Positions 41,865 through 52,242 are shown, numbered from the stretch's first letter. The stretch is 64,000 bases of DNA from an uncultured Candidatus Saccharibacteria bacterium (GCA_964348915.1 CAYGEM010000001.1:10360-74359), one strand, 5' to 3'. Numbers and translations: made by a program. Notes: generated by a model not told the origin, from the letters alone.

Positions 41865-42656
41865 TTAGGGGCTCCGCAAGGAGTCCCTTTGGCTTTTTAT
41901 GGGGTCAATCTTATCTTTAATAGATTGCGGTATTTCTTTGGGAAAACAAACAAACTCCTTAATCTTTTTAACATCAAATATAAAAACCTCTGTTTCATCA
42001 AGTTCTGGCGCAACTTTACCAGAAACCGAAAAAAGAATGGCTTTCTTGCCAGCATTTTTTATTCGCGTAACCGGACTAGCAAAATCACTATCTCCACTCC
42101 ACAATACAAAAGAATCTGTGTTATTTCTCTCGCAATCTAAAAGCATATCGACTCCCATTTCAACATCAAAATTGCATTTAGGTTCTTCTATATAAGTAAC
42201 CCCTTGTTTATTAAGTAAAGATAATTTTTTATTTAATATTTTAACAGTATCAATGTCTAATTTTGAAAGAAATTTTTTCTTCATAAAATTTTTTAGAATA
42301 GCAGGAGAATCATCCGGAATACTAGAAACATCAATCGACATCTTCATGAGTTTTACTGGCTTTGTGGATAAAATATACCCACAATTTTCTATTTCTTTTA
42401 TTTGTTCTTCAGAACGCTGATCTCCCACTAGAGTACCCGTATAGATAGTTACGGATTGTATTGTGTCAAAAGAATCAAAAAGTTGTTTCATCCTTTTTAA
42501 ATTAAAATGCCAGCCTAGTTTTTCCTGCCAATGAAGTACATTTTGCCAATCAACGTAAATTCTTGCTGGTTGCTCAAAAATAACACTAAGTTCCTTAATA
42601 GCTTTGGGAAATAATTCTGATAACTTTTTTATTCTGTCTGTTTTTGGTGTGAACAT
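41865..42656 (-). CDS. NYN/LabA-like (PIN-like) nuclease domain protein
   Basis: RIYVDWQNV, DVEMGVDML and VLWSGDSDFASPV fit the NYN/LabA acidic-residue pattern; 263 aa; AT-rich. Confidence 0.5.
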   Translation of the reverse strand: MFTPKTDRIKKLSELFPKAIKELSVIFEQPARIYVDWQNVLHWQEKLGWHFNLKRMKQLFDSFDTIQSVTIYTGTLVGDQRSEEQIKEIENCGYILSTKPVKLMKMSIDVSSIPDDSPAILKNFMKKKFLSKLDIDTVKILNKKLSLLNKQGVTYIEEPKCNFDVEMGVDMLLDCERNNTDSFVLWSGDSDFASPVTRIKNAGKKAILFSVSGKVAPELDETEVFIFDVKKIKEFVCFPKEIPQSIKDKIDPIKSQRDSLRSP

Positions 42657-42661
42657 AAAAG

Positions 42662-42874
42662 TTATCTTACCTTTTGATATCTGTAATTGTAGCGAATATT
42701 GTCGTTAAGGAATTGCCCATGTGATGAAGCGTGCAAAAATTGCTGAAACAAATGTTCCGGTACATTAAAATACTGATACACATCACCAGATGTAAATTCC
42801 ACTTCCAAAATAGCCGACTGCGGATCGTAACCAATTGAACTAATATTTGTTGATGTAACCGGCGTTCTTTGCAT
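42662..42874 (-). CDS. KTSC-domain small protein
   Basis: 70 aa; IGYDPQSAILEVEFTSGDVYQYFNVPEHLFQQFLHASSHGQFLNDNIRYNYRYQKV matches the KTSC consensus. Confidence 0.6.
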   Translation of the reverse strand: MQRTPVTSTNISSIGYDPQSAILEVEFTSGDVYQYFNVPEHLFQQFLHASSHGQFLNDNIRYNYRYQKVR

Positions 42875-42883
42875 AAATATATT

Positions 42884-44035
42884 TTATGATTTTGTATGCC
42901 TAGGGTCCATTGACTCCGCCAAAGCCGAATCAAACAATTCTTTGAGCTTCGTTTTTTGCCCAAGAAGCTGTTTTTTGTAATCCTGCACCGCGGAAAGTTT
43001 GGCGACGATTTGCCTTTGCTCTTTAAGTGATGGAAAAGCTATCTTTTGATTATAAATATCTGTGTCGCTGACGGCTGGATATGATGCTCCTCTTTGGAAT
43101 GGGAGTATCTTATTTACAAAATAGTCTGAATTAACCACATAACTTATAAAACATGGATCGGCTATATTTGTTTTGGGTCGAATAACACAAAATCCAGTCG
43201 AAGCAATCGAGCCGTTTAACGTTGCCGGTATAAAAGCGATGTGTTTCAGATACGGCCTTACTGTTGAAAAAATTGTATCATTAGTCCGAACTAATTTTCT
43301 TGCCCGCGACGGCGCATTTTTGACCAAAATAATTTGTGCTTTTACAACGTGCTCTTTATCTATGGAGGCGATATCGATATAAAAAAAAGAATCTTTAAAA
43401 ATTGCTCTTGGATTTATTTGTTCAATCTTTTCACAAACTTCTTCTAATTTTATATTTTCCCATTTATCATTTTTACTCTGAAATTCTTGGTGAAAGATGG
43501 AATCAAAAAGCTCGTCGGATTTTTGGATAAGCCCGTCGTTCAATTTTTGCGCCTCGGCGATTTTATCCAACCGCTCAACGATTTGTTTTTGAGTTACAAG
43601 GGGAGGGAGAGGGATTATTAAATTATTTACAAACGCCTTGCTTAAATGCGGAATAGCCGCACCTTGAGCTGCAGCACGAATTTTTTCTTGAAAAAGTTTT
43701 AATAAATAGAATAAAAACTTATTTTCTAAAGAATTTTCGTGTAAAACTTTCACAATTGTTGAGCCAACAAAACCACTTAAACCAGTTCCCACCGTTCCAG
43801 CATGTGCCCCATCCCAAACAAGCAAAACATCGTCCGGTTTACAACGAACTCCTTTTGTCTCTCGCGTATAAACCGCATACTGATTTGTTCTTAGGCCATC
43901 TATGCCAATATACGGCTCGCCATCATCATCAATGGCCATTTTCTTGCCCTTCTCAAAAGAAATCAGCTCTCCTAATTTTCTTGCCCCGTAATGAACGCTT
44001 TGCGTTCTACTACTGGGGTTTGTTGGCCAAGTCAT
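42884..44035 (-). CDS. hsdS: Type I restriction-modification specificity subunit
   Basis: Two target-recognition domains separated by coiled-coil spacers (LVTQKQIVERLDKIAEAQKLND; LKEQRQIVAKLSAVQDYKKQL); 383 aa. Confidence 0.8.
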   Translation of the reverse strand: MTWPTNPSSRTQSVHYGARKLGELISFEKGKKMAIDDDGEPYIGIDGLRTNQYAVYTRETKGVRCKPDDVLLVWDGAHAGTVGTGLSGFVGSTIVKVLHENSLENKFLFYLLKLFQEKIRAAAQGAAIPHLSKAFVNNLIIPLPPLVTQKQIVERLDKIAEAQKLNDGLIQKSDELFDSIFHQEFQSKNDKWENIKLEEVCEKIEQINPRAIFKDSFFYIDIASIDKEHVVKAQIILVKNAPSRARKLVRTNDTIFSTVRPYLKHIAFIPATLNGSIASTGFCVIRPKTNIADPCFISYVVNSDYFVNKILPFQRGASYPAVSDTDIYNQKIAFPSLKEQRQIVAKLSAVQDYKKQLLGQKTKLKELFDSALAESMDPRHTKS

Positions 44036-44036
44036 A

Positions 44037-44450
44037 TTATTTAAATCCCAAATCCTCTCGCATTAAATCTTCAATTTTATCCGCATCGTTCCATAGTTTA
44101 TCAAACATAGGTCCAGAATTATTTTCATCATAATTTAGTGAAGAACATTTTTTATAAACTTCGCTAACATATACAAGAAATGTTTTTAATTCTTTATTTA
44201 AGATTGGATTTGAGACAAGAAGACATTGTGCGCTTACCTCGGCTATGGTCGCGATATCTAAATTTTTCCCTTCTTTGGTAAGTGAAGTGAATCTGCTTAC
44301 TAAATGTGCGGCAAATTCTCTATACGCTTCTAGTTTCGCATTAAAAATTCTCTGTTCTTTTTCGTTTCGTTTCTGCATAAGAGCGGAAACGAGGGCGGCT
44401 ACAACACCGCTTGAAAGTATGGCTATAATAATTGTGGTTGTTGAATTCAT
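44037..44450 (-). CDS. Hypothetical single-pass membrane protein embedded in the R-M locus
   Basis: N-terminal TM (TIIIAILSSGVVAALVSALM) plus roughly 110-aa cytoplasmic helical domain; no known motif. Confidence 0.4.
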   Translation of the reverse strand: MNSTTTIIIAILSSGVVAALVSALMQKRNEKEQRIFNAKLEAYREFAAHLVSRFTSLTKEGKNLDIATIAEVSAQCLLVSNPILNKELKTFLVYVSEVYKKCSSLNYDENNSGPMFDKLWNDADKIEDLMREDLGFK

Positions 44451-44486
44451 GTTTTTCCTAGTTTTTTGTTGGCCAAGTCATATTAT

Positions 44487-46892
44487 TTATGCGTCAATTC
44501 CGAGTATTTTTTTAGTCCACTTATAATCTAGAGAATTAAGTGCAGATAATGCGTTTTCTTTTTCCTCTTGGTCTTCGAGATTATCATCAAGGCTAAGAAG
44601 CTCCTCAACAACTTTGTAATCAAAGAAATAACTATAACGATGATAATTTCTTGCAAGAATTTTTTCACGATTCGCAGACTCTTGAATGTATGTGAAATCC
44701 TCTGGAACGCCAAATTCAACGAGTGTATTTATTGCCCAGAGATACGTAATCTCGGATACAAACCAGTCATCATTTTCCTTGGTCATTCCTCTTGAGGCTT
44801 TTGTGTTATCTCGAGCTTCAATTAAGATCTTAAGCGTTACTACACGAAGCATCGGAGCGTCGCTTGCATCCAAGCGAAAACGAGCTCCAATGGCCTTAAG
44901 TTTGATAAGAGGATTGGGGTTATCCCTTATCAACGTCAGTAAAGCGTCGCTCAATTTTTTTATATCACCACTATCTTCACTGATGCTGTCATAGATACTT
45001 TCGTAAGGCCTACCGATACTATTCAACAGAATTGCATTTATATCAGGAGTTTTGTTCTTAAAGATATGTGCAAAATATTCCTTCTCGATAATACTGAAAT
45101 TTTCGATGTCTTCGCTTAAGGTATTAAATACATCATCTTCCTTACCCTCTACATTATACCGACTACCTTTTTTTCTTTGTCTATTTAACCTATAGAACAT
45201 TCTGTTTTCACCCAAAAATTTTTCTAGGTCATTTTTTGCTAACGCTTTTACATCTTCAGGATGTTCTACAGATGCGATTGCGCTTAGTCGTGCCGTCAAA
45301 TCTTCTCTGAACGTTTGAACCAATGGAGCTATATCCGTTACGGCTTGCTCTGGTGTAATCACTCCGTACAGCTTTCTCAAAAACAGAAAGGCCTGCTTAC
45401 TTTTTTGAGGTGTCACAAATGACAGTAGCTGTTTTTTATCAAAAACACTTTTTCTTTCTTCTAACTCCAACTCTGATGTTACCTCCGCCCATCGCTCAAA
45501 TTTTTTCAAACGTGTTTCCACTTTGAGCAGAGGAGCAACTAGGGGGTTATTCTCCTGTTTTTCAAGTACCCGAAAGTGTCTCCAGCTCATTATATTTCCA
45601 TGCCTAGTATCTGGAGAATAATTATCCAGAATGTATTGAACAAGTGATTCGTATGTATCTTTGTCCAAAAGACTGCTTATAGCTTCTTGAATTTCCTCCT
45701 CTAGTTTTCGCTCATTAATACCATCCTTCCAAAATTTATTTGTCACCTTGCTAATGTCTCCAAGCCATTCAAGAAGTTTAGGAAAAATCGCTTTATATTT
45801 TACGCTCACCAAAGCTCCTAAGTGTGCAATGAATGTTTCTTCCCAGCGCGTATCTAAAAGCTCTTTTTCGATATAATCAGCTTTATTTGTTTTTCCGATA
45901 CGCTTAATACAAGTAAGCACTAAATTGGTTATATTTGTATAACTAGCTTGCGTAAGTATATTTTCGAGAAAGGGTAAATCAGATTCTTCTGCACTTAAAC
46001 TAAGTATTGTGAGTGCCTTGAGTTTCTCGCTTTGCCATCCGCTTTCAATTACGCTATGCAAGAAACGTCTTTCCGCAGCGCCCAGGTCTATTTTTATCTT
46101 TTCAATTTTTTTCTTGCCTTTCTCTGTGAGTATGGGTATGATTTTACGTGTCAAAGCATTGGCAATTATTATTTGGGCGCTGTCAGTATCTTCTTTCTCT
46201 AAAAACCTTGATACCGCATATCCTAATATCTCTAGATTAGCTTCGCCTTGCATCAATGTGATAATTTCGTCTGCAGTATCTGTGAAATCATTTAATGAGC
46301 TTACTACTCCTCGGCGTATCTTTTGAGAAGAATGTTTGAAAACTTCTTGCAAAAGAGGAACTACACTTTCAAATCTCTCTCTATGGTTAAACAACCAAAA
46401 CCATACAGGAAAATCATTTTCTAAGGACGATTGAGTTAGAAAAACTAGTTCCTTTTTAGAAAAAGAAATTTCTTCTCGACTTTTATAGATAAGAAGTAAG
46501 GCGCCCCTTCCTAAAAGAAGACTCTTGTCTTCCAAATATTCCTCGTGCTGCTTTTGAAAAAAATCTTCAACTGGTGAGCTCTCTGCGCTTGCTGGCAGTT
46601 CTAAATCATCATCTGCTTCAGGTGATGGTGACGGCGAGGTTGAAGCTTCTTCAATTAAATCATTTCCTCCGCCCAAAACTGCCTTTACAAATTTGGCTTG
46701 ATCGCTTTGCGGTAACCCTTCGGGTAAATTAACTACGATTTGTTGTCCAATTAGAGTACTAATAACTTCGGTTTTTTTAAGTTCGAGATTTAAAATTTTC
46801 TCATTGTGTTCCTCCTTATGAAAAATACGCTCAATGAATGAGCCGACTTTGAGTTTAATACTTTCAAATTTTATACCTGTAAAATCAAACAT
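44487..46892 (-). CDS. Large uncharacterised all-alpha (HEAT/ARM-like) protein embedded between hsdM and hsdS
   Basis: 801 aa, AT-rich, acidic linker (SPSPSPEADDDLELP) after an N-terminal domain of about 80 aa, then about 700 aa of repetitive helical sequence; no catalytic motif recognised. Confidence 0.45.
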   Translation of the reverse strand: MFDFTGIKFESIKLKVGSFIERIFHKEEHNEKILNLELKKTEVISTLIGQQIVVNLPEGLPQSDQAKFVKAVLGGGNDLIEEASTSPSPSPEADDDLELPASAESSPVEDFFQKQHEEYLEDKSLLLGRGALLLIYKSREEISFSKKELVFLTQSSLENDFPVWFWLFNHRERFESVVPLLQEVFKHSSQKIRRGVVSSLNDFTDTADEIITLMQGEANLEILGYAVSRFLEKEDTDSAQIIIANALTRKIIPILTEKGKKKIEKIKIDLGAAERRFLHSVIESGWQSEKLKALTILSLSAEESDLPFLENILTQASYTNITNLVLTCIKRIGKTNKADYIEKELLDTRWEETFIAHLGALVSVKYKAIFPKLLEWLGDISKVTNKFWKDGINERKLEEEIQEAISSLLDKDTYESLVQYILDNYSPDTRHGNIMSWRHFRVLEKQENNPLVAPLLKVETRLKKFERWAEVTSELELEERKSVFDKKQLLSFVTPQKSKQAFLFLRKLYGVITPEQAVTDIAPLVQTFREDLTARLSAIASVEHPEDVKALAKNDLEKFLGENRMFYRLNRQRKKGSRYNVEGKEDDVFNTLSEDIENFSIIEKEYFAHIFKNKTPDINAILLNSIGRPYESIYDSISEDSGDIKKLSDALLTLIRDNPNPLIKLKAIGARFRLDASDAPMLRVVTLKILIEARDNTKASRGMTKENDDWFVSEITYLWAINTLVEFGVPEDFTYIQESANREKILARNYHRYSYFFDYKVVEELLSLDDNLEDQEEKENALSALNSLDYKWTKKILGIDA

Positions 46893-46894
46893 GT

Positions 46895-48436
46895 TTATAT
46901 TTTGTCTCGGATATTCTCTAAAATTTTATTCGTCTCTTTTTCCATACCCTCAATCTCCCCCAAAATCTCCTTCGGATCGCGATGATTTGTTTCTTCTTCG
47001 CCGTTGTACGGACTGTAAGTATTGGCCGAGAGAATATAGTCGTTCTCGGCAATTTCTTTCACGGTGGTAAACCATGAGTAAGGTTTGGCGACCGCCTGAT
47101 CTTTGCCCCAAAGCTCTAAGAGTTTTTGGATATCATTTTTATACTGCGGCCCAAACTTTTTGGCGGCGGAAAGTGACGAACCATCACCTTTCATATCGAA
47201 AAACCAAATCTTCTCTTTTTCATCGAGTTTCGGCGCGGATTTCTTTTTGAAAATTAAAAAGCTTGTTTTGACTCCAGCATAGGGCTGAAATACACCGGCC
47301 GGCATTGAGACAACCGCTTCCAATTTTGTATTCTCAAGCAAAAATCGGCGGATATCTTTATCGTCCTTGTTAGTCCCAAAAAGCGAACCCTCCGGCAAGA
47401 TTATGCCGGCCCGGCCACCCGGTTTAAGAGAGTTAATAACATAACCCAAGAAAAGTACCTGCGTCTTTTTTGATTTTACGGGCAAAGTTGGTTTTATTCG
47501 TCCTGCGTCAACCAAACCGGCAAAAGGAGGATTCGTTAAAATAACTTCGTATCTTTTAAGGTCGTTTTCGTCTTCGCTTCCTGCCACTGTATCCTTTCGT
47601 AAAATGCGCGCGCCCTCAAGCCCGTGAAGCAAAAGATTCATCAACGCCAGCCGCGAAACTTCCGGCGCGACATCATAACCGGTAAAAGTTTTTTGTGTGA
47701 GAAACTGCCACTGTTCTTTATTTAGTTTGTCGCCGTAGCCGACTTTACGGCCGTTTTTCTCTTCAATATTTTTAGCGTCGCTATTTTTAAATTTGATATA
47801 ATCGTACGCTGTTATTAAAAATCCGCCCGTGCCGCAAGCCGGGTCAAGAATTGTTTCGCCTATTTTTGGATTTACCATTTCTACAATCGCGCGGATAATA
47901 TGTCGCGGCGTGAGAAACGCGCCTAATTTGCCGGCCGAACTAATCTGACTCAAAAGATATTCATAGAGATCGCCCTTTACATCTGTGTCTAAACTGGAAA
48001 ATTCTATGGTGTCTATAATTTCAACTACCCTCTTCAATGTGGCCTCGTCGGGAATAAGCAATTTCGCGCCGTGAAATATCTGGCTAATGTTTGAGTGGCC
48101 ATTGTGCAACTCTTCAATAAACGGGAAAATCTCATCGCGGACAAACTTAAATAAATTACTACCCATTTTTACTCGCCATCGCGACCAGCGGAATCGGTCA
48201 TTTTTGCCGGAAAAAATTGACTTGTGTTTATGGCCGGTGATTTTTTCTTCTCTTTCCATTGCAATATCCTGTTCTTCAAGCATCTTAAGAAAGAAAAAGA
48301 AACTCAACTGCTGGATGCGAGTCATTGGGTCGCTCAACCCCTGAGCAAACAGATAGTTATTCAAAATATCTATCTTCTGCTTGAATTCCTCTCTTAATTG
48401 TTGGATATTATTTTGCATATTGTTGGGAAAAAACAC
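46895..48436 (-). CDS. hsdM: Type I restriction-modification DNA methyltransferase subunit
   Basis: N6-adenine MTase motif IV LTNPPFAG, AdoMet motif DPACGTGGFL, HsdM N-terminal domain; 513 aa. Confidence 0.9.
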   Translation of the reverse strand: MFFPNNMQNNIQQLREEFKQKIDILNNYLFAQGLSDPMTRIQQLSFFFFLKMLEEQDIAMEREEKITGHKHKSIFSGKNDRFRWSRWRVKMGSNLFKFVRDEIFPFIEELHNGHSNISQIFHGAKLLIPDEATLKRVVEIIDTIEFSSLDTDVKGDLYEYLLSQISSAGKLGAFLTPRHIIRAIVEMVNPKIGETILDPACGTGGFLITAYDYIKFKNSDAKNIEEKNGRKVGYGDKLNKEQWQFLTQKTFTGYDVAPEVSRLALMNLLLHGLEGARILRKDTVAGSEDENDLKRYEVILTNPPFAGLVDAGRIKPTLPVKSKKTQVLFLGYVINSLKPGGRAGIILPEGSLFGTNKDDKDIRRFLLENTKLEAVVSMPAGVFQPYAGVKTSFLIFKKKSAPKLDEKEKIWFFDMKGDGSSLSAAKKFGPQYKNDIQKLLELWGKDQAVAKPYSWFTTVKEIAENDYILSANTYSPYNGEEETNHRDPKEILGEIEGMEKETNKILENIRDKI

Positions 48437-50696
48437 TTTCGTTTAGTTCTTTGATAGTGGTTTTTAATGTTCCCTCATCAAAGACTCGTAAAACATAATT
48501 AAGTCCGCCGATATGCTGGAAAATCGGTTCGTTAAAAATAGAAACCTCAATCGGCGCGCGGCGAGCGATATACTGGCTTTTAACCAAACGCAAAATCTTG
48601 GCCTGCTCCGGCTCAAACTGCTTATCGATCATCCACGCTTCAAATAGTTCACCGATCCGGTCTTCGTATAATTGTTCTTCGGTGGGGAGATTTTGAATGC
48701 CAAGGGCTGTTTTTATAAAGTCATTCAATGTCCCGATTGGATAACGATACGCTTCGCGCAGATTCACTTCATTGAAATAAAACTTTGGCGAATTGAGGCG
48801 GTCCGCTAAAATTTGAGATTCGTCATTTGAAAGTTCCTGACCTTCTTTTACTTTTTTCACCAATGGCTCGGCTTGCGCAAGCTCCTGAACCTGTCGCTCC
48901 CAGGCAGTTTGATAATCATCGGAATCTATTCTTTCTCCTTCGGCTCCAATTTCAACATAGGCGCGTTTTATGACGACATCAATATTTTCTTGAGCGGTCT
49001 CTGCAACCTGAATGAAACCGGCCGGTACTTCAATATCTTCTTCAATAAAGTCCTTAGCTTCCGTTCCCCACGGGATACCAGCTTTGGCTTTGGCGATTTC
49101 TGAATATGGATTATAGCTTTCGTCATTAAAATACTTAGTAACGCCGGCAAAATCATAAATCCTAAATGATTTTTTATTAATCCGAGAATCAAGACGACTG
49201 CCACGGCCACGCATTTGCTGATATAAGATCGGCGATTGTGTCGGACGAACCATTATTATATTTTCAACCATTGGCGCATCAATGCCGGTATCCATCATAC
49301 CCACAGAAACAGCAATCGTTGGCATTTCTTCCAGCTTAAAGCGGCGAATAGCCCCACGAGGGTCTTCGGTGTCGGAAGTAATAACCTCCGCAAATCTGCC
49401 TTTATATTCCGGCTTAGCTTGATTGAAATAATACGCAAGCTGAGCGGCATGGCGTTTGGTCACCGCATAAACAATGGCTTTGCGCAATTTCTTCGGCTCG
49501 CCTGTGGTGAGCGAAGTCGAACCACGTTTTTCTTCTTCAGTAAAATAAGCTTGGACAACCTGCTCGTTTCTGGCCGGTATGTTTATCTTTCTTTCCAAGT
49601 CTTCCGGACTGTAATCTTCGCCTTCAAAATTTACACCTTCAAGCGATACTTTCGTATCAATCTGCACAATGTCATAGCCAGCCAGAAAGCCGTCTTTGAC
49701 TCCTCGGCGGATACTGTAAACAAAAGTCGGCTTTCCTTTCTGTTCCGTCTCGTCCCAACAGCCGAAAAGTTTATAAGTATTGCGATCAACATATCCGCTG
49801 GGCGTTGCCGTCATCCCAATGCGAATGGCATCAAAGTGTGAGAGGACGCCGTTATAAATACCGAAAATTGAGCGATGAGCTTCATCAGAAATGATCACAT
49901 CAAAATAACCGCTGGTGAATAATGAAAGCTGGGAATAGAGAGTCGGGAGAGTTGAAATGATTATTGACGATTCGTCGCGCTGTTTGCCGCCATAGAGCAG
50001 TTTGGATGGGTAGTCTTTAAGGATTTCGTCAAAGACTTCCTTTGTTTGAACTCCCAGATCAATGCGATCCACCAAAAAGAGAGCGCGATTGGCAAGTCCG
50101 GCTTCAAATAACCGTTTGAGATAGAGAGCTATTGTATCGGTCTTGCCAGTACCTGTTGCCATAACCAAAAGCATTTTGCGTTTGCCACCTTCAATAGCCT
50201 TGTCCATAATCTGCATCGCTTCTTTCTGGTATGGTCGAGGCGAGCGCCATTCACCGCCCTTGTAATACTTTTCCGGAATGGGAATAATCGACAATGGTTT
50301 CTGCTCAAGCCGGAGGGTTTGGATTTTCTCAAGATCGCGTTGCGAGAAAAAAGTAGCGACTTTTTGTTCCGGCCGATATTTATAGTCCCAAAAATAAATC
50401 TCTTCGCCGTTTGATAAAAAAATGAAACCGGCATTGATGGATTCCGCATATGAAAGAGCCTGTTGCTTGGCGGAAGCTGGATCAACAGCGAAACGCTTTG
50501 CCTCAATAACGGCTATGGCGCAACCCCTTGAATCTTTGAGAATATAATCAGCTCGGCCGTTCTGCGAAGTCTCTTCCGTAGAAACCTGATTTTTATTTTC
50601 AATATCCCACTCAGCTTCGCGAAGTCTGCGGTCAATGAGAATCCGCGCGTCGGTCTCACGCATAAACTTTTTTCCGGTTGTATCTTGAGTAGTCAT
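48408..50696 (-). CDS. hsdR: Type I restriction enzyme endonuclease/helicase subunit
   Basis: N-terminal PD-(D/E)XK nuclease (ADYIL...IEAKRF), SF2 helicase motifs MATGTGKT and IISDEAHRS; 762 aa; overlaps hsdM by 29 nt. Confidence 0.85.
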   Translation of the reverse strand: MTTQDTTGKKFMRETDARILIDRRLREAEWDIENKNQVSTEETSQNGRADYILKDSRGCAIAVIEAKRFAVDPASAKQQALSYAESINAGFIFLSNGEEIYFWDYKYRPEQKVATFFSQRDLEKIQTLRLEQKPLSIIPIPEKYYKGGEWRSPRPYQKEAMQIMDKAIEGGKRKMLLVMATGTGKTDTIALYLKRLFEAGLANRALFLVDRIDLGVQTKEVFDEILKDYPSKLLYGGKQRDESSIIISTLPTLYSQLSLFTSGYFDVIISDEAHRSIFGIYNGVLSHFDAIRIGMTATPSGYVDRNTYKLFGCWDETEQKGKPTFVYSIRRGVKDGFLAGYDIVQIDTKVSLEGVNFEGEDYSPEDLERKINIPARNEQVVQAYFTEEEKRGSTSLTTGEPKKLRKAIVYAVTKRHAAQLAYYFNQAKPEYKGRFAEVITSDTEDPRGAIRRFKLEEMPTIAVSVGMMDTGIDAPMVENIIMVRPTQSPILYQQMRGRGSRLDSRINKKSFRIYDFAGVTKYFNDESYNPYSEIAKAKAGIPWGTEAKDFIEEDIEVPAGFIQVAETAQENIDVVIKRAYVEIGAEGERIDSDDYQTAWERQVQELAQAEPLVKKVKEGQELSNDESQILADRLNSPKFYFNEVNLREAYRYPIGTLNDFIKTALGIQNLPTEEQLYEDRIGELFEAWMIDKQFEPEQAKILRLVKSQYIARRAPIEVSIFNEPIFQHIGGLNYVLRVFDEGTLKTTIKELNESVFSQQYAK

Positions 50697-50701
50697 AATA
50701 T

Positions 50702-51379
50702 TTAAATCAATTTGTGCTCTTTGAAGCTGAAATAATTCGCCTTACTGACGATCACGTGATCGTTTACATCAATTCCGAGAAGCTTGCCGGCATCTACCAA
50801 TTGCTTGGTTATGTCCGAGTCTTCCTGTGATGGCGATGGATCTCCGGCTGGATGATTATGAGCAATAATTACTTGCGCGGCTAAATGCCTGACTGCCGGC
50901 TCAAATACTTCCCGAGGGTGGACAAGATTGGTGTTAAGGGAGCCGACTGAAACGATTTCCCTCTTAATTTCTTGATTTCTGGAATCCAAAAAGAAAATTA
51001 CGAAATGCTCTTTTTTATGATCACGAATATCCTTGAGTTCATCCCAAACGTCTTTTGGCGATAAAAGCAAAACTGATTGTTTGTTTTGCAGGTGCCGGCG
51101 ACCGAGTTCGTAACAAGCAACGATTTCACACACTTTCGCACTTCCAAGACCGAATGTGTTTTTTAATTCTTTAACCGAAGCCTTAGCTAAACCAACGCCG
51201 CTGAATTTCCTTAAAATCTTGCTTGATAATTCCACGACATTAATACCTTCGCTTCCGGTCCGCAAGAGAATTGCCAAAAGTTCCGAATCTGAAAGCCGCT
51301 CTGGACCGTATTTCTCCAGTTTCTCTCGCGGCCTATCAATTTTTGGCAGATCTTTTATTTTCATATTCCGATCTTCCAA
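50702..51379 (-). CDS. radC: RadC-like JAB/MPN domain protein
   Basis: JAMM motif HNHPAGDPSPSQED, N-terminal helix-hairpin-helix-like region; 225 aa. Confidence 0.8.
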   Translation of the reverse strand: MEDRNMKIKDLPKIDRPREKLEKYGPERLSDSELLAILLRTGSEGINVVELSSKILRKFSGVGLAKASVKELKNTFGLGSAKVCEIVACYELGRRHLQNKQSVLLLSPKDVWDELKDIRDHKKEHFVIFFLDSRNQEIKREIVSVGSLNTNLVHPREVFEPAVRHLAAQVIIAHNHPAGDPSPSQEDSDITKQLVDAGKLLGIDVNDHVIVSKANYFSFKEHKLI

Positions 51380-52242
51380 TCGCCCTTTTCGATAAATGCC
51401 TCAATGGTCTGACGCTTGGCTTTATTAAGGGCGTTTGAATGAGAAAGACGGCTCTGTTTGGAATATTCAGAAAGCGTCACGATTTTTTTGTGTTCCAAAT
51501 ACGCCAATCGCTTGTGATAACTGTTAGTGAGTGCGCGACCGACAATTTCCTCCATGACCGCGGTTTTACTGTTTGTTTGAAATTCTTTGAAAGCATCATA
51601 GTATCTGGCACGATCGATAAACTTAATATTGATGGGCACGTATCCTTCGCGGATAAGCAGGTAATTATTGATCGCTCGGCCGATTCTGCCATTGCCGTCG
51701 ATAAACGGGTGCGCGTATTCGAAAGCAAGATGTAGCCGGGCGATCCTTCGCACGATATGTTCATGGCTTGAGGCGTTGTATTCCGCGAGCATCATTTTCA
51801 TGAGTTCGGGAATTTCTGATGCGTGCGGCGCGATATGAGTACCTACGCGTACACGCTCCTCGCCAATGCGGAATCTTCCGGCGATGTCATCGCGGATATT
51901 GGAAATGAGCATTTTATGCAAAAACAAAATAACCTCTTCAGATAGTTCCTGTTCTTTCGCTCGCTTGTCGATGTATTCCACCACCCGCGCGAGATTTTTC
52001 GCTTCGAAAAGCTCGCGCTCTGAGACGTATCGATCAAGATCGATCTGGAGAAGAATCTTTTCCGTCTCTTCGAGAGTAAGCGTACTGTTCTCGATGGCGT
52101 TGGAGTTGTACACCTGCTCCGGAATTTCCGCTTCCGCGATCATCTTGAGCAATGACTCTTTTCCGGGTGAGACGCGGTAATAGCGCTCGCGAAGTTCGAT
52201 TATTTTTTTGTATATATTTAGCGTTCTAGCCATATAAGGCAA
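51361..52242 (-). CDS. Fic/Doc family protein (probable AMPylator)
   Basis: Fic motif HPFIDGNGRIGRA; 293 aa; overlaps the radC-like gene by 19 nt. Confidence 0.85.
   Translation of the reverse strand: MPYMARTLNIYKKIIELRERYYRVSPGKESLLKMIAEAEIPEQVYNSNAIENSTLTLEETEKILLQIDLDRYVSERELFEAKNLARVVEYIDKRAKEQELSEEVILFLHKMLISNIRDDIAGRFRIGEERVRVGTHIAPHASEIPELMKMMLAEYNASSHEHIVRRIARLHLAFEYAHPFIDGNGRIGRAINNYLLIREGYVPINIKFIDRARYYDAFKEFQTNSKTAVMEEIVGRALTNSYHKRLAYLEHKKIVTLSEYSKQSRLSHSNALNKAKRQTIEAFIEKGDWKIGI

What the first reader, a model, noticed from the sequence alone, without database searches (positions are those of the whole stretch)
44037..46892. Two uncharacterised genes (801-aa helical protein and 137-aa membrane protein) inserted between hsdM and hsdS: candidate novel defence module
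The Type I R-M operon reads hsdR-hsdM, then an 801-aa all-alpha protein (44487-46892), then a 137-aa single-TM protein (44037-44450), then hsdS, all co-oriented with gaps of 2-36 nt. Foreign genes between hsdM and hsdS are a classic location for embedded anti-phage or abortive-infection modules; the established precedent is PrrC in the prr locus. Neither protein shows a recognisable catalytic motif. The large one has a short N-terminal domain, an acidic Ser/Pro linker and a long HEAT/ARM-like helical body, as sensor or scaffold proteins do. The small one has a membrane-effector-like architecture. The whole 41.8-52.8 kb segment is AT-rich relative to the core genes.
Basis: partly seen in the sequence, partly recalled or inferred. 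Interest (0 to 1): 0.75.

Follow-up and report, generated by a model that had tools for sequence, protein, structure and literature searches.

The report
Swappable cargo genes inside restriction operon
Two unknown genes really do sit inside a restriction-modification operon of an ultra-small (CPR) bacterium, but they are two independent swappable cargo cassettes rather than a working pair. They lie in a slot where related genomes carry recognisable anti-phage genes, and each cassette is marked off by a repeated copy of the start of the next restriction gene.

Summary
On the minus strand the order is Fic-RadC-HsdR-HsdM-[801 aa]-[137 aa]-HsdS-KTSC-NYN, with gaps of 2, 36 and 1 nt around the two inserts.

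- The 801-aa family (about 35 clusters among 15 billion proteins) was seen in 11 other contexts, never with the 137-aa gene.
- The 137-aa family (85 clusters, all CPR) was seen in seven other contexts, never with the 801-aa gene.
- A near-identical operon (HsdR 95%, HsdM 93%) carries a NYN gene where the 801-aa gene sits here.
- Other loci carry SMODS+TM, trypsin+HEPN or Ymh+AbiV in that slot.

Each cargo gene is followed by a 25-29-nt copy of the hsdS start. The window has two exact 25-nt copies, at 44465-44489 and 44019-44043.

The 801-aa protein is a disordered, conserved N-peptide plus an acidic linker plus a HEAT/ARM solenoid. It has no catalytic fold. Its only outside relative is the repeat arm of an HD-CE/nSTAND1 conflict NTPase.

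The 137-aa protein is one transmembrane helix plus a four-helix bundle, architecturally like RonA of the Ronin system.

Both genes are under purifying selection. A defence role is plausible by embedding but untested.

The parts
51361..52242 (-). Fic/DOC-family gene, first gene of the co-oriented cluster
   Evidence: PF02661 1.6e-21; PADLOC PDC-S04 1.5e-33 and SoFic 4e-26. The best promoter-like site on this strand is at 52270-52242 (11 of 12 matches).
50702..51379 (-). RadC-like JAB gene
   Evidence: PF04002 1.7e-41. It is 96% identical to the RadC at the head of the same operon in L016/L017.
48408..50696 (-). hsdR (Type I restriction subunit with EcoEI_R_C tail)
   Evidence: ResIII 2.8e-34, EcoEI_R_C 7.6e-16, HSDR_N; PADLOC REase_I 4.8e-69.
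46895..48436 (-). hsdM. Its last ~70-125 nt travel with the 801-aa cassette. The true start is probably the ATG at 48418.
   Evidence: N6_Mtase 2.8e-60. The hsdM 3' end plus the first ~100 nt of the 801-aa gene are 93-95% DNA-identical to L003 and L027, whose 801-aa proteins are only 49-51% identical. The start is inferred from alignment with L016 and L026.
44487..46892 (-). 801-aa orphan HEAT/ARM-like solenoid protein (cargo cassette 1)
44465..44489 (-). Boundary repeat, copy 1. It comprises the stop codon of the 801-aa gene, ATAAT, and a dead copy of the hsdS start. The stub ORF MTWPTKN* spans 44458-44481.
   Evidence: Exact 25-nt direct repeat of 44019-44043; 0 copies expected by chance in 100 shuffles.
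44037..44450 (-). 137-aa single-TM plus four-helix-bundle protein (cargo cassette 2, the commonest occupant of this slot)
44019..44043 (-). Boundary repeat, copy 2. It comprises the stop codon of the 137-aa gene, ATAAT, and the live hsdS start.
43984..44018 (-). 35-nt palindromic hairpin, part of a 39-nt in-frame insert (43980-44018) in the hsdS leader (codons 6-18)
   Evidence: -19.3 kcal/mol, z = -5.6. It is present at other cassette boundaries in L026, L021 and L016, with a different but still paired inner stem in L016. Single copy in the window. No Rfam family.
42884..44035 (-). hsdS (two target-recognition domains)
   Evidence: Methylase_S 4.7e-33 in 2 stretches. It is only 32% identical to the HsdS of the otherwise near-identical operon L016, apart from the conserved central (43482-43624) and C-terminal blocks.
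42662..42874 (-).
   Evidence: PF13619 6.2e-25. It occupies the same position in L016, L021 and L028.
41865..42656 (-). NYN-domain gene, last gene of the island
   Evidence: PF01936 5.1e-16; PADLOC HEC-09 5e-6. It is 47-48% identical to the NYN at the same position in L016 and L021.

Best explanation
The interval between hsdM and hsdS of this CPR (Patescibacteria) Type I R-M operon is a variable cargo slot. The 801-aa and 137-aa genes are two separate single-gene cassettes stacked in it, not a two-gene system.

Cassette structure (shown). Every cargo gene in this slot, here and in related loci, ends with a stop codon, an AT-rich spacer (AATAAT) and a 25-29-nt copy of the hsdS start (ATGACTTGGCCAACAAA..., encoding MTWPTK...). 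The array therefore reads hsdM - cargo - stub - cargo - stub/hsdS.

How cassettes move (inferred). Cassettes are gained, lost and exchanged between genomes by recombination at two conserved sequences: the hsdM 3' end on the left and the hsdS-start repeat on the right or between cassettes. A direct repeat pair also permits looping out and re-entry of a circle carrying one cargo gene.

Why the stubs persist (inferred from sequence). In its full form the stub carries the AGGAG of the hsdS 'KLGE' codons 8-9 nt before the next cargo ATG. It therefore supplies a ribosome-binding site and keeps the cargo expressed from the R-M operon.

Function (inferred from position only). Both genes are accessory anti-phage or abortive-infection-type functions co-expressed with the R-M enzyme.
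- The 801-aa protein has no enzyme fold. It is most likely a ligand- or protein-binding sensor/adaptor. Its HEAT solenoid is related to the sensor arm of a STAND conflict NTPase. Its conserved, flexibly tethered N-terminal amphipathic peptide would be the output or docking element, acting with a partner supplied in trans.
- The 137-aa protein is a membrane-anchored cytoplasmic four-helix bundle. Its most likely mode is RonA-like: a membrane effector held in check by HsdM/HsdS and released when the R-M complex is attacked.
For: Independence of the two genes.
- tblastn finds no 137-aa homologue near any 801-aa homologue, and the reverse also holds.
- phmmer at E<=1 finds no conserved partner for the 801-aa gene.

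Cargo swap.
- L016/L017 carry RadC 96%, HsdR 95% and HsdM 93% identical to the window. They have NYN-320 plus a 60-aa ORF in place of the 801-aa gene, the 137-aa homologue at 74% and HsdS at 32%.
- Other occupants of the slot are SMODS+TM (L020), Trypsin_2+Zn-ribbon+HEPN (L021, L028-37) and Ymh+AbiV (L024).
- The 801-aa homologues in L026 (90%) and L027 (51%) lie in the same slot without the 137-aa gene.

Boundary repeats.
- The window has an exact 25-nt pair, with 0 copies expected by chance.
- The same element brackets cassettes in L016, L024 (nested 28- and 29-nt pairs) and L028 (27 nt, 100%). Single copies follow the 801-aa homologue in L026 and L027.
- L003 keeps a decayed hsdM 3' end and an hsdS-start stub around its 801-aa homologue although it has no hsd genes.

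Mosaic ages. dS for the 801-aa gene, window against L026, is 0.27, while the adjoining hsdM pair is saturated at 80% amino-acid identity.

Protein evidence.
- Purifying selection.
- Link to HD-CE/nSTAND1: hmmsearch 6e-10 library-wide and hhalign 96.7%.

Precedents from the literature.
- RonA: a small TM effector suppressed by HsdMS and triggered by anti-restriction proteins (10.1101/2023.04.06.535777).
- TgvAB embedded in a Type I R-M system (PMC11411939).
- 'Guilt by embedding' applied to Type I R-M systems (10.1101/2024.01.29.577857).
- Repeat-guided excision and reintegration at the tvr hsd locus (PMC6265443).
Against: - No experiment or direct computational test of a defence function exists.
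- The 801-aa protein has no effector domain and no constant partner.
- About half of its homologues lie outside R-M loci, including one in an ordinary-looking chromosomal neighbourhood (L001).
- Its STAND link rests on a single protein, and a follow-up search found no more.
- The 801-aa cassette abuts hsdM directly, with no stub on its left. It therefore cannot have entered by the simple circle-at-stub route.
- No recombinase is encoded in the island. The repeat coincides with a conserved coding motif of HsdS (W-P-T-K-K-L-G-E), so part of its conservation is protein-level.
- The four-helix-bundle matches of the 137-aa protein are generic.
- hsdR is present here, unlike in Ronin.
- The sample of loci is small: 11 contexts for the 801-aa gene and 7 for the 137-aa gene.
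Confidence: 0.6

Rival explanations
1. One reading: the 801-aa HEAT protein (sensor) and the 137-aa membrane protein (effector) form one two-gene defence system inserted as a unit between hsdM and hsdS.
For: The genes are adjacent, co-oriented and 36 nt apart in this window. Their architectures are complementary: a large binding solenoid without an effector and a small TM protein without a sensor.
Against: They never co-occur elsewhere: 0 of 11 contexts for the 801-aa gene and 0 of 7 for the 137-aa gene. In L026 and L027 the 801-aa gene sits in the same slot followed by unrelated genes. A cassette-boundary stub separates the two genes. Family sizes differ: 17 clusters against 85 at 90% identity.
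Confidence: 0.06
2. The 137-aa protein is not an effector. It is a structural accessory of the R-M machine, for example a membrane tether that places the HsdRMS complex at the site of DNA entry. The 801-aa protein is unrelated hitch-hiking cargo.
For: The 137-aa gene is the only constant element of the slot. It lies immediately before hsdS, or one cassette away, even where HsdR and HsdM are only 30-40% identical (L020, L024). The K/R-rich flank predicts a cytoplasmic bundle on a membrane anchor. From my own knowledge, EcoKI has been reported to be membrane-associated.
Against: Most Type I systems, including L026 and L027 of this same family, lack the gene. It also occurs in loci without intact hsd genes (L012, L018). 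Stubs flank it like any other cargo gene.
Confidence: 0.15
3. The 801-aa protein is a mobile-element gene that modulates or counters host functions, for example an anti-defence factor or a regulator of restriction. It is not a defence gene, and its presence in hsd operons is incidental capture.
For: Homologues lie next to a Rep protein with a serine recombinase (L007), an overlapping HTH_17 excisionase-like gene (L008) and a Y1 transposase (L010). The protein is acidic overall (net -26) with a highly acidic linker. It has low GC and a patchy distribution.
Against: No relative was found in 2.9 million viral contigs, in BFVD structures or in PHROGs. It recurs at the same hsdM junction in two clades that are only about 50% identical. 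Every identifiable alternative occupant of the slot is a defence or Abi-type gene. An anti-restriction gene inside an intact R-M operon would be self-defeating.
Confidence: 0.1
4. Neither gene has a conflict-related role. They are neutral or selfish passengers, and the hsdS-start copies are simply footprints of sloppy recombination among hsdS alleles during specificity swapping.
For: hsdS genes recombine at conserved blocks. Here the central block (43482-43624) and the C-terminal block are conserved while the target-recognition domains differ. The repeat lies in a conserved coding motif. One 801-aa homologue sits in an ordinary chromosomal neighbourhood.
Against: Strong purifying selection on both genes across saturated synonymous divergence. 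Other occupants of the slot are consistently defence-type genes. R-M neighbourhoods are enriched: 5 of 12 independent 801-aa contexts (window included), and hsdM-hsdS slot or stub contexts in 6 of 7 137-aa contexts with enough flank (window included).
Confidence: 0.12

Closest known systems
Ronin (RonA + HsdMS), a decoy-immunity abortive-infection system of E. coli ECOR55 (Silas et al., bioRxiv 10.1101/2023.04.06.535777)
   Same: Both are small proteins with one predicted TM helix, encoded tightly next to hsdS/hsdM. In Ronin the protein is the cell-killing effector, is neutralised by HsdMS and is released by the anti-restriction proteins Ocr, ArdA or Aop1. The 137-aa protein shares the architecture class and the tight hsdS linkage.
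   Different: RonA is 61 aa, whereas this protein is 137 aa with an added four-helix bundle. Ronin lacks hsdR, whereas this operon has an intact hsdR. The 137-aa gene also occurs away from intact hsd genes.
PrrC anticodon nuclease in the prr (EcoprrI) Type I R-M locus
   Same: Both are a defence gene embedded in a Type I R-M operon and functionally coupled to it. PrrC is found almost exclusively embedded in Type I R-M systems.
   Different: Neither protein here has the ABC-ATPase-like domain or nuclease domain of PrrC, and no PADLOC or Pfam hit was found. The similarity is in location and logic only.
'Guilt-by-embedding' candidates (HEC/PDC families; Payne et al., bioRxiv 10.1101/2024.01.29.577857) and TgvAB of Vibrio cholerae VPI-2 (PMC11411939)
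   Same: The principle is the same: genes interrupting a Type I R-M, BREX or DISARM operon are enriched for new defence systems. The flanking NYN gene here hits HEC-09 and the Fic gene hits PDC-S04.
   Different: The 801-aa and 137-aa proteins match none of the 5027 PADLOC models. The papers I read do not describe cassettes delimited by duplicated hsdS starts.
Pneumococcal tvr (SpnIV) and ivr phase-variable Type I loci (PMC6265443)
   Same: Short direct repeats inside an hsd operon guide excision and reintegration through circular intermediates, and accessory genes are embedded in the operon.
   Different: Those loci shuffle hsdS target-recognition halves and encode their own tyrosine recombinase. 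Here the shuffled units are unrelated cargo genes, only one hsdS is present and no recombinase is encoded in the island.
Sensor repeat arms of STAND (nSTAND1/Avs-like) conflict NTPases
   Same: Residues 105-260 of the 801-aa protein align with the start of the C-terminal HEAT arm of an HD-CE + nSTAND1 protein (96.7% probability). The fold class is HEAT/ARM.

Membership tests
Type I restriction-modification system (host operon) | HsdR (helicase/nuclease), HsdM (N6-adenine methyltransferase) and HsdS (two target-recognition domains) encoded together | tested here: met
   Pfam and PADLOC hits for all three subunits.
PrrC-type embedded anticodon nuclease | ABC-ATPase-like N-domain plus a C-terminal anticodon-nuclease domain | tested here: not met
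   No Pfam, PADLOC or NCBIfam hit for either protein. The 801-aa protein is all-alpha and the 137-aa protein is a helix bundle.
Ronin / RonA | Small protein with one TM helix, tightly linked to hsdS and hsdM | tested here: met
   TM segment at residues 7-25. The gene lies 1 nt from hsdS here and in the hsdM-hsdS interval in 5 independent loci.
Ronin / RonA | Sequence homology to RonA | not tested
   No RonA sequence or model was available in the tools used.
Ronin / RonA | The locus lacks hsdR (a 'master-less' HsdMS) | tested here: not met
   An intact 762-aa hsdR is present in the operon.
Ronin / RonA | Toxic when expressed alone, suppressed by HsdMS, triggered by anti-restriction proteins | not testable with these tools
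   Requires expression experiments.
HEAT/ARM alpha-solenoid repeat proteins | Stacked helix-turn-helix repeats forming a solenoid | tested here: met
STAND NTPase (nSTAND1) conflict proteins | P-loop STAND NTPase domain with an N-terminal effector | tested here: not met
   The 801-aa protein has no NTPase or effector domain. Only the repeat arm is shared, with P0121.
Known or candidate defence systems in PADLOC-DB v2 | Significant match to a PADLOC model | tested here: not met
   The 801-aa protein matches 0 families. The 137-aa protein has only chance-level hits (E 0.018-0.03).
Integron gene cassettes | attC recombination sites plus an IntI integrase and attI | tested here: not met
   No integrase is encoded in the island. 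The boundary element is the hsdS start. A hairpin accompanies only some copies.
Phase-variable hsdS shufflons (ivr/tvr type) | Several hsdS or half-hsdS copies with repeats and a dedicated recombinase | tested here: not met
   There is one hsdS. The extra copies are 25-30-nt stubs only, and no recombinase is present.

The most novel reading that the evidence does not exclude
The hsdM-hsdS interval of this family of CPR Type I R-M operons works as a recombinase-independent, integron-like cassette platform. Single promoterless defence genes are captured, stacked and traded between genomes through a 25-30-nt repeat that is at once the hsdS start, a leader mini-ORF and a ribosome-binding site for the next cassette. 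The 801-aa HEAT protein and the 137-aa membrane protein would then be two new anti-phage families. The 137-aa protein would be a RonA-like guard of the R-M complex in organisms that mostly lack CRISPR.
Probability: 0.25. Interest if true: 0.75.

Novelty: new variant of a known kind. Interest (0 to 1): 0.5.

Why it matters
CPR/Patescibacteria make up a large share of bacterial diversity. They mostly lack CRISPR and are thought to rely on R-M systems, and their defence repertoire is almost unexplored.

This locus family shows a Type I R-M operon used as a chassis, with cargo at nearly every gene junction. It also has a simple, recognisable sequence signature (the duplicated hsdS start) that marks cassette boundaries.

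That signature could be used to mine CPR metagenomes for new single-gene defence candidates and to study how cassettes move without a dedicated recombinase.

The 137-aa family is a testable candidate for a second, unrelated example of the Ronin principle, in which a membrane effector is guarded by HsdMS.

The 801-aa family is very rare, so its individual importance is limited unless a function is shown.

Tried and rejected
1. Sequence-family searches for both proteins returned nothing significant. I searched Pfam, PADLOC, NCBIfam, PHROGs and PDB sequence profiles.

2. An exhaustive profile search with the 801-aa family alignment found no larger superfamily: 21 hits, one of them informative (P0121).

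3. A follow-up search with the P0121 repeat arm found no hits, so the STAND link could not be broadened.

4. Foldseek against afdb50 was not available. The BFVD viral structure search gave no match at E <= 0.001. The viral-contig scan gave no relative.

5. I looked for a conserved partner of the 801-aa gene with blastp at 1e-4 and phmmer at E <= 1 among all neighbours. Only one neighbour pair is conserved, the 131/133-aa HAD-like ORFs of L006 and L007.

6. I considered the N-terminal 'HKEEH' of the 801-aa protein as an inverted zincin (HxxEH) motif. I rejected it because the segment is predicted disordered and the motif is absent from divergent family members P0104, P0110 and P0116.

7. I considered 'RIGKT' (residues 331-335) as a P-loop. 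I rejected it because the first glycine is missing and the fold is all-alpha.

8. I tested whether the hsdR|hsdM junction, empty here and occupied by DUF3800 or NYN elsewhere, shows the same start duplication. It does not.

9. The Rfam search of the island gave only sub-threshold chance hits.

10. No tRNA or integrase marks the island edges.

Full report
**1. Observation**

The gene order is:
- Fic, 51361-52242
- RadC, 50702-51379
- HsdR, 48408-50696
- HsdM, 46895-48436
- an 801-aa ORF, 44487-46892
- a 137-aa ORF, 44037-44450
- HsdS, 42884-44035
- a NYN gene, 41865-42656

Pfam and PADLOC identify the three Hsd subunits and the flanking genes with high confidence. They return nothing significant for the two embedded ORFs. 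The only hits are HEAT_2 at 18 bits, below its threshold, for the large ORF and chance-level hits for the small one. NCBIfam, PHROGs and PDB sequence profiles are also empty.

GC content is 0.34-0.38 for 42-47 kb, 0.41-0.45 for hsdM to Fic, and about 0.47 in the flanks. The 'AT-rich island' is therefore really two tiers.

The best promoter-like site on this strand lies just upstream of Fic. No convincing terminator interrupts the cluster. This is consistent with co-transcription but does not prove it.

**2. Both ORFs are real genes from different families**

- The 801-aa protein has 17 clusters of full-length relatives at 46-100% identity.
- An exhaustive profile search of 1.84 billion representatives adds only about 15 more divergent full-length members and no link to a larger family.
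- The 137-aa protein belongs to a separate family of 85 clusters at 56-100% identity. Every named member comes from Patescibacteria: Sungbacteria, Yanofskybacteria or Roizmanbacteria.
- dN/dS against orthologues is 0.08-0.15 for both genes.

**3. They are not a pair**

I examined 11 other independent contexts of the 801-aa family (L001, L003, L005-L010, L026, L027). None contains a relative of the 137-aa gene.

I examined seven other independent contexts of the 137-aa family (L012, L016, L018, L020, L021/L028-37, L023, L024). None contains the 801-aa gene.

A sensitive all-against-all comparison of the neighbours of the 801-aa homologues found no constant partner.

**4. What the slot is**

The most informative comparison is with L016/L017, from a groundwater Patescibacteria bin. 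RadC, HsdR and HsdM there are 96%, 95% and 93% identical to the window. From about HsdM residue 506 onward everything differs:
- a 320-aa NYN gene plus a 60-aa ORF replace the 801-aa gene;
- the 137-aa homologue is 74% identical;
- HsdS is 32% identical;
- a DUF3800 gene sits between hsdR and hsdM.

In other loci the 137-aa gene is again just before hsdS, even where HsdR and HsdM are only 30-40% identical. The remaining occupants of the interval vary:
- SMODS nucleotidyltransferase plus a TM protein (L020);
- trypsin-like protease, Zn-ribbon ORF and HEPN (L021, L028-L037);
- Hypoth_Ymh plus AbiV (L024).

Conversely, the 801-aa homologues of L026 (90% identical) and L027 (51%) lie directly after hsdM and before hsdS. 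They are followed by an unrelated 224-aa ORF and an unrelated 300-aa multi-TM ORF respectively.

The hsdM-hsdS interval is therefore a hot spot for interchangeable cargo that is mostly of a recognisable defence type. The window carries two such cargo genes.

**5. Cassette boundaries**

The window holds an exact 25-nt direct repeat, at 44465-44489 and 44019-44043. No copies are expected by chance.

Read in the gene direction, the repeat is TAA-ATAAT-ATGACTTGGCCAACAAA. That is a stop codon, a spacer and the start of hsdS (M-T-W-P-T-K).
- The copy after the 137-aa gene is the live hsdS start.
- The copy after the 801-aa gene is a dead stub (MTWPTKN*) that ends 7 nt before the ATG of the 137-aa gene.

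The same element follows each cargo gene in L016, L024, L026, L027 and L028, and follows the 137-aa homologue in L012. It gives bracketing direct repeats of 25-29 nt, including nested pairs in L024.

L003 has no hsd genes at all. Its 801-aa homologue nevertheless keeps both a decayed 125-nt hsdM 3' end, with in-frame stops, and an hsdS-start stub.

On the left side, the last ~70-125 nt of hsdM plus the first ~100 nt of the 801-aa gene are 93-95% DNA-identical between the window and L003 or L027. The 801-aa proteins in those loci are only about 50% identical. dS for the 801-aa gene, window against L026, is 0.27, while the adjoining hsdM pair is saturated.

These are signatures of recombination at the conserved hsdM tail and hsdS start.

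In its full form the stub ends in ...AAATTAGGAGAA. Its AGGAG lies 8-9 nt before the ATG of the next cargo gene in L027 and L028. The stub therefore doubles as a ribosome-binding site. This is read directly from the sequence, and the function is inferred.

The mechanism of movement is inferred, not shown. The options are double crossover using the two arms, unequal exchange between stubs, or loop-out and re-entry of circles. No recombinase is encoded in the island. The 801-aa cassette has no stub on its left.

The nearest documented mechanism is repeat-guided excision and reintegration at the pneumococcal tvr Type I locus, which does use its own recombinase (PMC6265443).

**6. The 801-aa protein**

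AlphaFold2 (17-sequence alignment, mean pLDDT 80) gives three regions:
- residues 1-103 are disordered;
- within them, the first ~35 residues are strongly conserved and amphipathic, followed by an acidic Ser/Pro linker with net charge -9;
- residues 104-801 form 40-odd helices in a solenoid.

The protein has no TM segment and a net charge of -26.

The one informative outlier in the exhaustive search is P0121. It consists of an HD-CE domain, an nSTAND1 NTPase and a HEAT arm. Residues 631-776 of P0121 align with residues 105-260 of the 801-aa protein at 96.7% probability (E 4.5e-10), including the WFWLF motif. A follow-up search did not broaden this link.

From this I infer a binding (sensor or adaptor) protein rather than an enzyme. 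Its partner must be supplied in trans, because no neighbour is constant.

Its contexts, counting the window, are enriched for R-M genes in 5 of 12 cases:
- three in the hsdM-hsdS slot;
- one (L003) with hsd remnants next to an N6_N4 methyltransferase and DUF2726;
- one (L005) beside a different Type I system, YgjP and a FokI-cleavage-domain protein.

The remaining contexts are mobile-element-like or ordinary.

**7. The 137-aa protein**

It has one strong TM helix (residues 7-25) with a K/R-rich C-terminal flank. The positive-inside rule then predicts a cytoplasmic soluble domain, which is an inference.

It is the most frequent occupant of the slot. The closest functional precedent is RonA of Ronin. 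RonA is a 61-aa single-TM protein tightly linked to hsdS and hsdM that kills the cell unless restrained by HsdMS, and it is unleashed by anti-restriction proteins.

The resemblance is architectural and positional only. Homology could not be tested. hsdR is present here. The gene also occurs in decayed or non-hsd settings (L012, L018).

**8. Comparison with what is known, and novelty**

Genes embedded in Type I R-M operons are an established hunting ground for defence systems:
- PrrC;
- TgvAB (PMC11411939);
- the 'guilt-by-embedding' survey (10.1101/2024.01.29.577857).

The concept is therefore not new. The new points are:
- two protein families absent from current defence models;
- the demonstration that they are independent cassettes;
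- the stub-delimited cassette architecture in CPR Type I operons, which I did not find described.

I rate this as a new variant of a known kind. Function remains untested.

**9. Verdict**

- Observation: confirmed.
- 'Novel defence module (pair)': partly supported. The location and novelty hold, but the pairing does not.
- Best explanation (confidence about 0.6): two independent, probably defence-related cargo cassettes in a recombination-driven slot.
- Interest: 0.5. This is a useful, testable lead for CPR immunity and for cassette exchange without a recombinase, but it rests on inference from position, and the large protein belongs to a very rare family.

Noticed in passing
window 42662-42874 (-): A 70-aa KTSC-domain gene (PF13619, 6e-25) lies between hsdS and the NYN gene. 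It occupies the same position in L016, L021 and L028 and has relatives in three PHROG families of unknown function.
   Followed up: partly
window 43980-44018 (-); also L026 4948-4990, L021 2112-2154, L016 6527-6566: A 36-39-nt in-frame insert in the hsdS leader forms a stable hairpin (-16 to -22 kcal/mol, z about -5). The outer CCCC/GGGG arms are conserved, and the inner stem differs but remains paired in L016. It appears at different cassette boundaries in different loci. It matches no Rfam family and is single-copy in the window. It could be a small palindromic insertion element, an RNA processing or attenuation signal, or a recombination signal.
   Followed up: partly
window 46768-47030 against L027 462-723 and L003 9877-10099: The hsdM 3' end plus the first ~100 nt of the 801-aa gene are more similar to L027 (94.7% over 150 nt) than to L026 (89%). 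Yet the L026 protein is 90% identical and the L027 protein only 51%. The junction itself is therefore mosaic, which fits gene conversion there.
   Followed up: partly
window 48408-48436: The listed GTG start of hsdM (48436) overlaps hsdR by 29 nt. Alignment with L016 and L026 suggests the real start is the ATG at 48418 (MQNNIQQLREE...). The hsdR|hsdM junction is 'empty' here but holds DUF3800 (L016) or a NYN gene (L026, L028) elsewhere. Those loci also have a ~100-nt conserved non-coding stretch before hsdM that the window lacks.
   Followed up: partly
L028 1-11316 (same architecture in L029-L037 and L021): In this Yanofskybacteria-type locus, cargo sits at almost every junction of the R-M skeleton: RadC-GmrSD-HsdR-NYN-HsdM-Trypsin_2-60aa-137aa-HEPN-HsdS-KTSC-NYN. 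The whole operon acts as a defence-island chassis.
   Followed up: partly
P0121 (925 aa, from the representative library): This protein combines an HD-CE effector, an nSTAND1 NTPase and a HEAT arm. The first repeats of the arm are homologous to residues 105-260 of the 801-aa protein. It is the only link between this orphan family and any annotated protein.
   Followed up: partly
window 42884-44035 against L016 7202-8425: HsdS is only 32% identical between two operons whose HsdR and HsdM are 93-95% identical. The central block (43482-43624) and the C-terminal block (42921-43018) stay about 80-90% identical at the DNA level. This is the classic pattern of target-recognition-domain swapping.
   Followed up: no
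L026 4931-5605 and L024 6231-6773: Two cargo ORFs, a 224-aa unknown and a 180-aa AbiV, use the duplicated hsdS start as their own start codon and N-terminus (MTWPT...). In L026 the ORF even carries the 25-residue leader with the hairpin insert. Cargo genes can therefore be translationally grafted onto the stub.
   Followed up: no
L006 6463-6858 and L007 2777-3178: A 131/133-aa ORF (84% identical; weak HAD-IA hydrolase similarity, E 1.6e-5) lies immediately upstream of the 801-aa homologue in two loci of one subclade. It is the only conserved neighbour found, and the window lacks it.
   Followed up: partly
window 44487-46892, protein residues 25-31: A nearly invariant 'HKEEHNE' motif sits in the conserved N-terminal peptide of the close family. 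It resembles an HxxEH metal-binding motif but is not conserved in the divergent members P0104, P0110 and P0116.
   Followed up: yes
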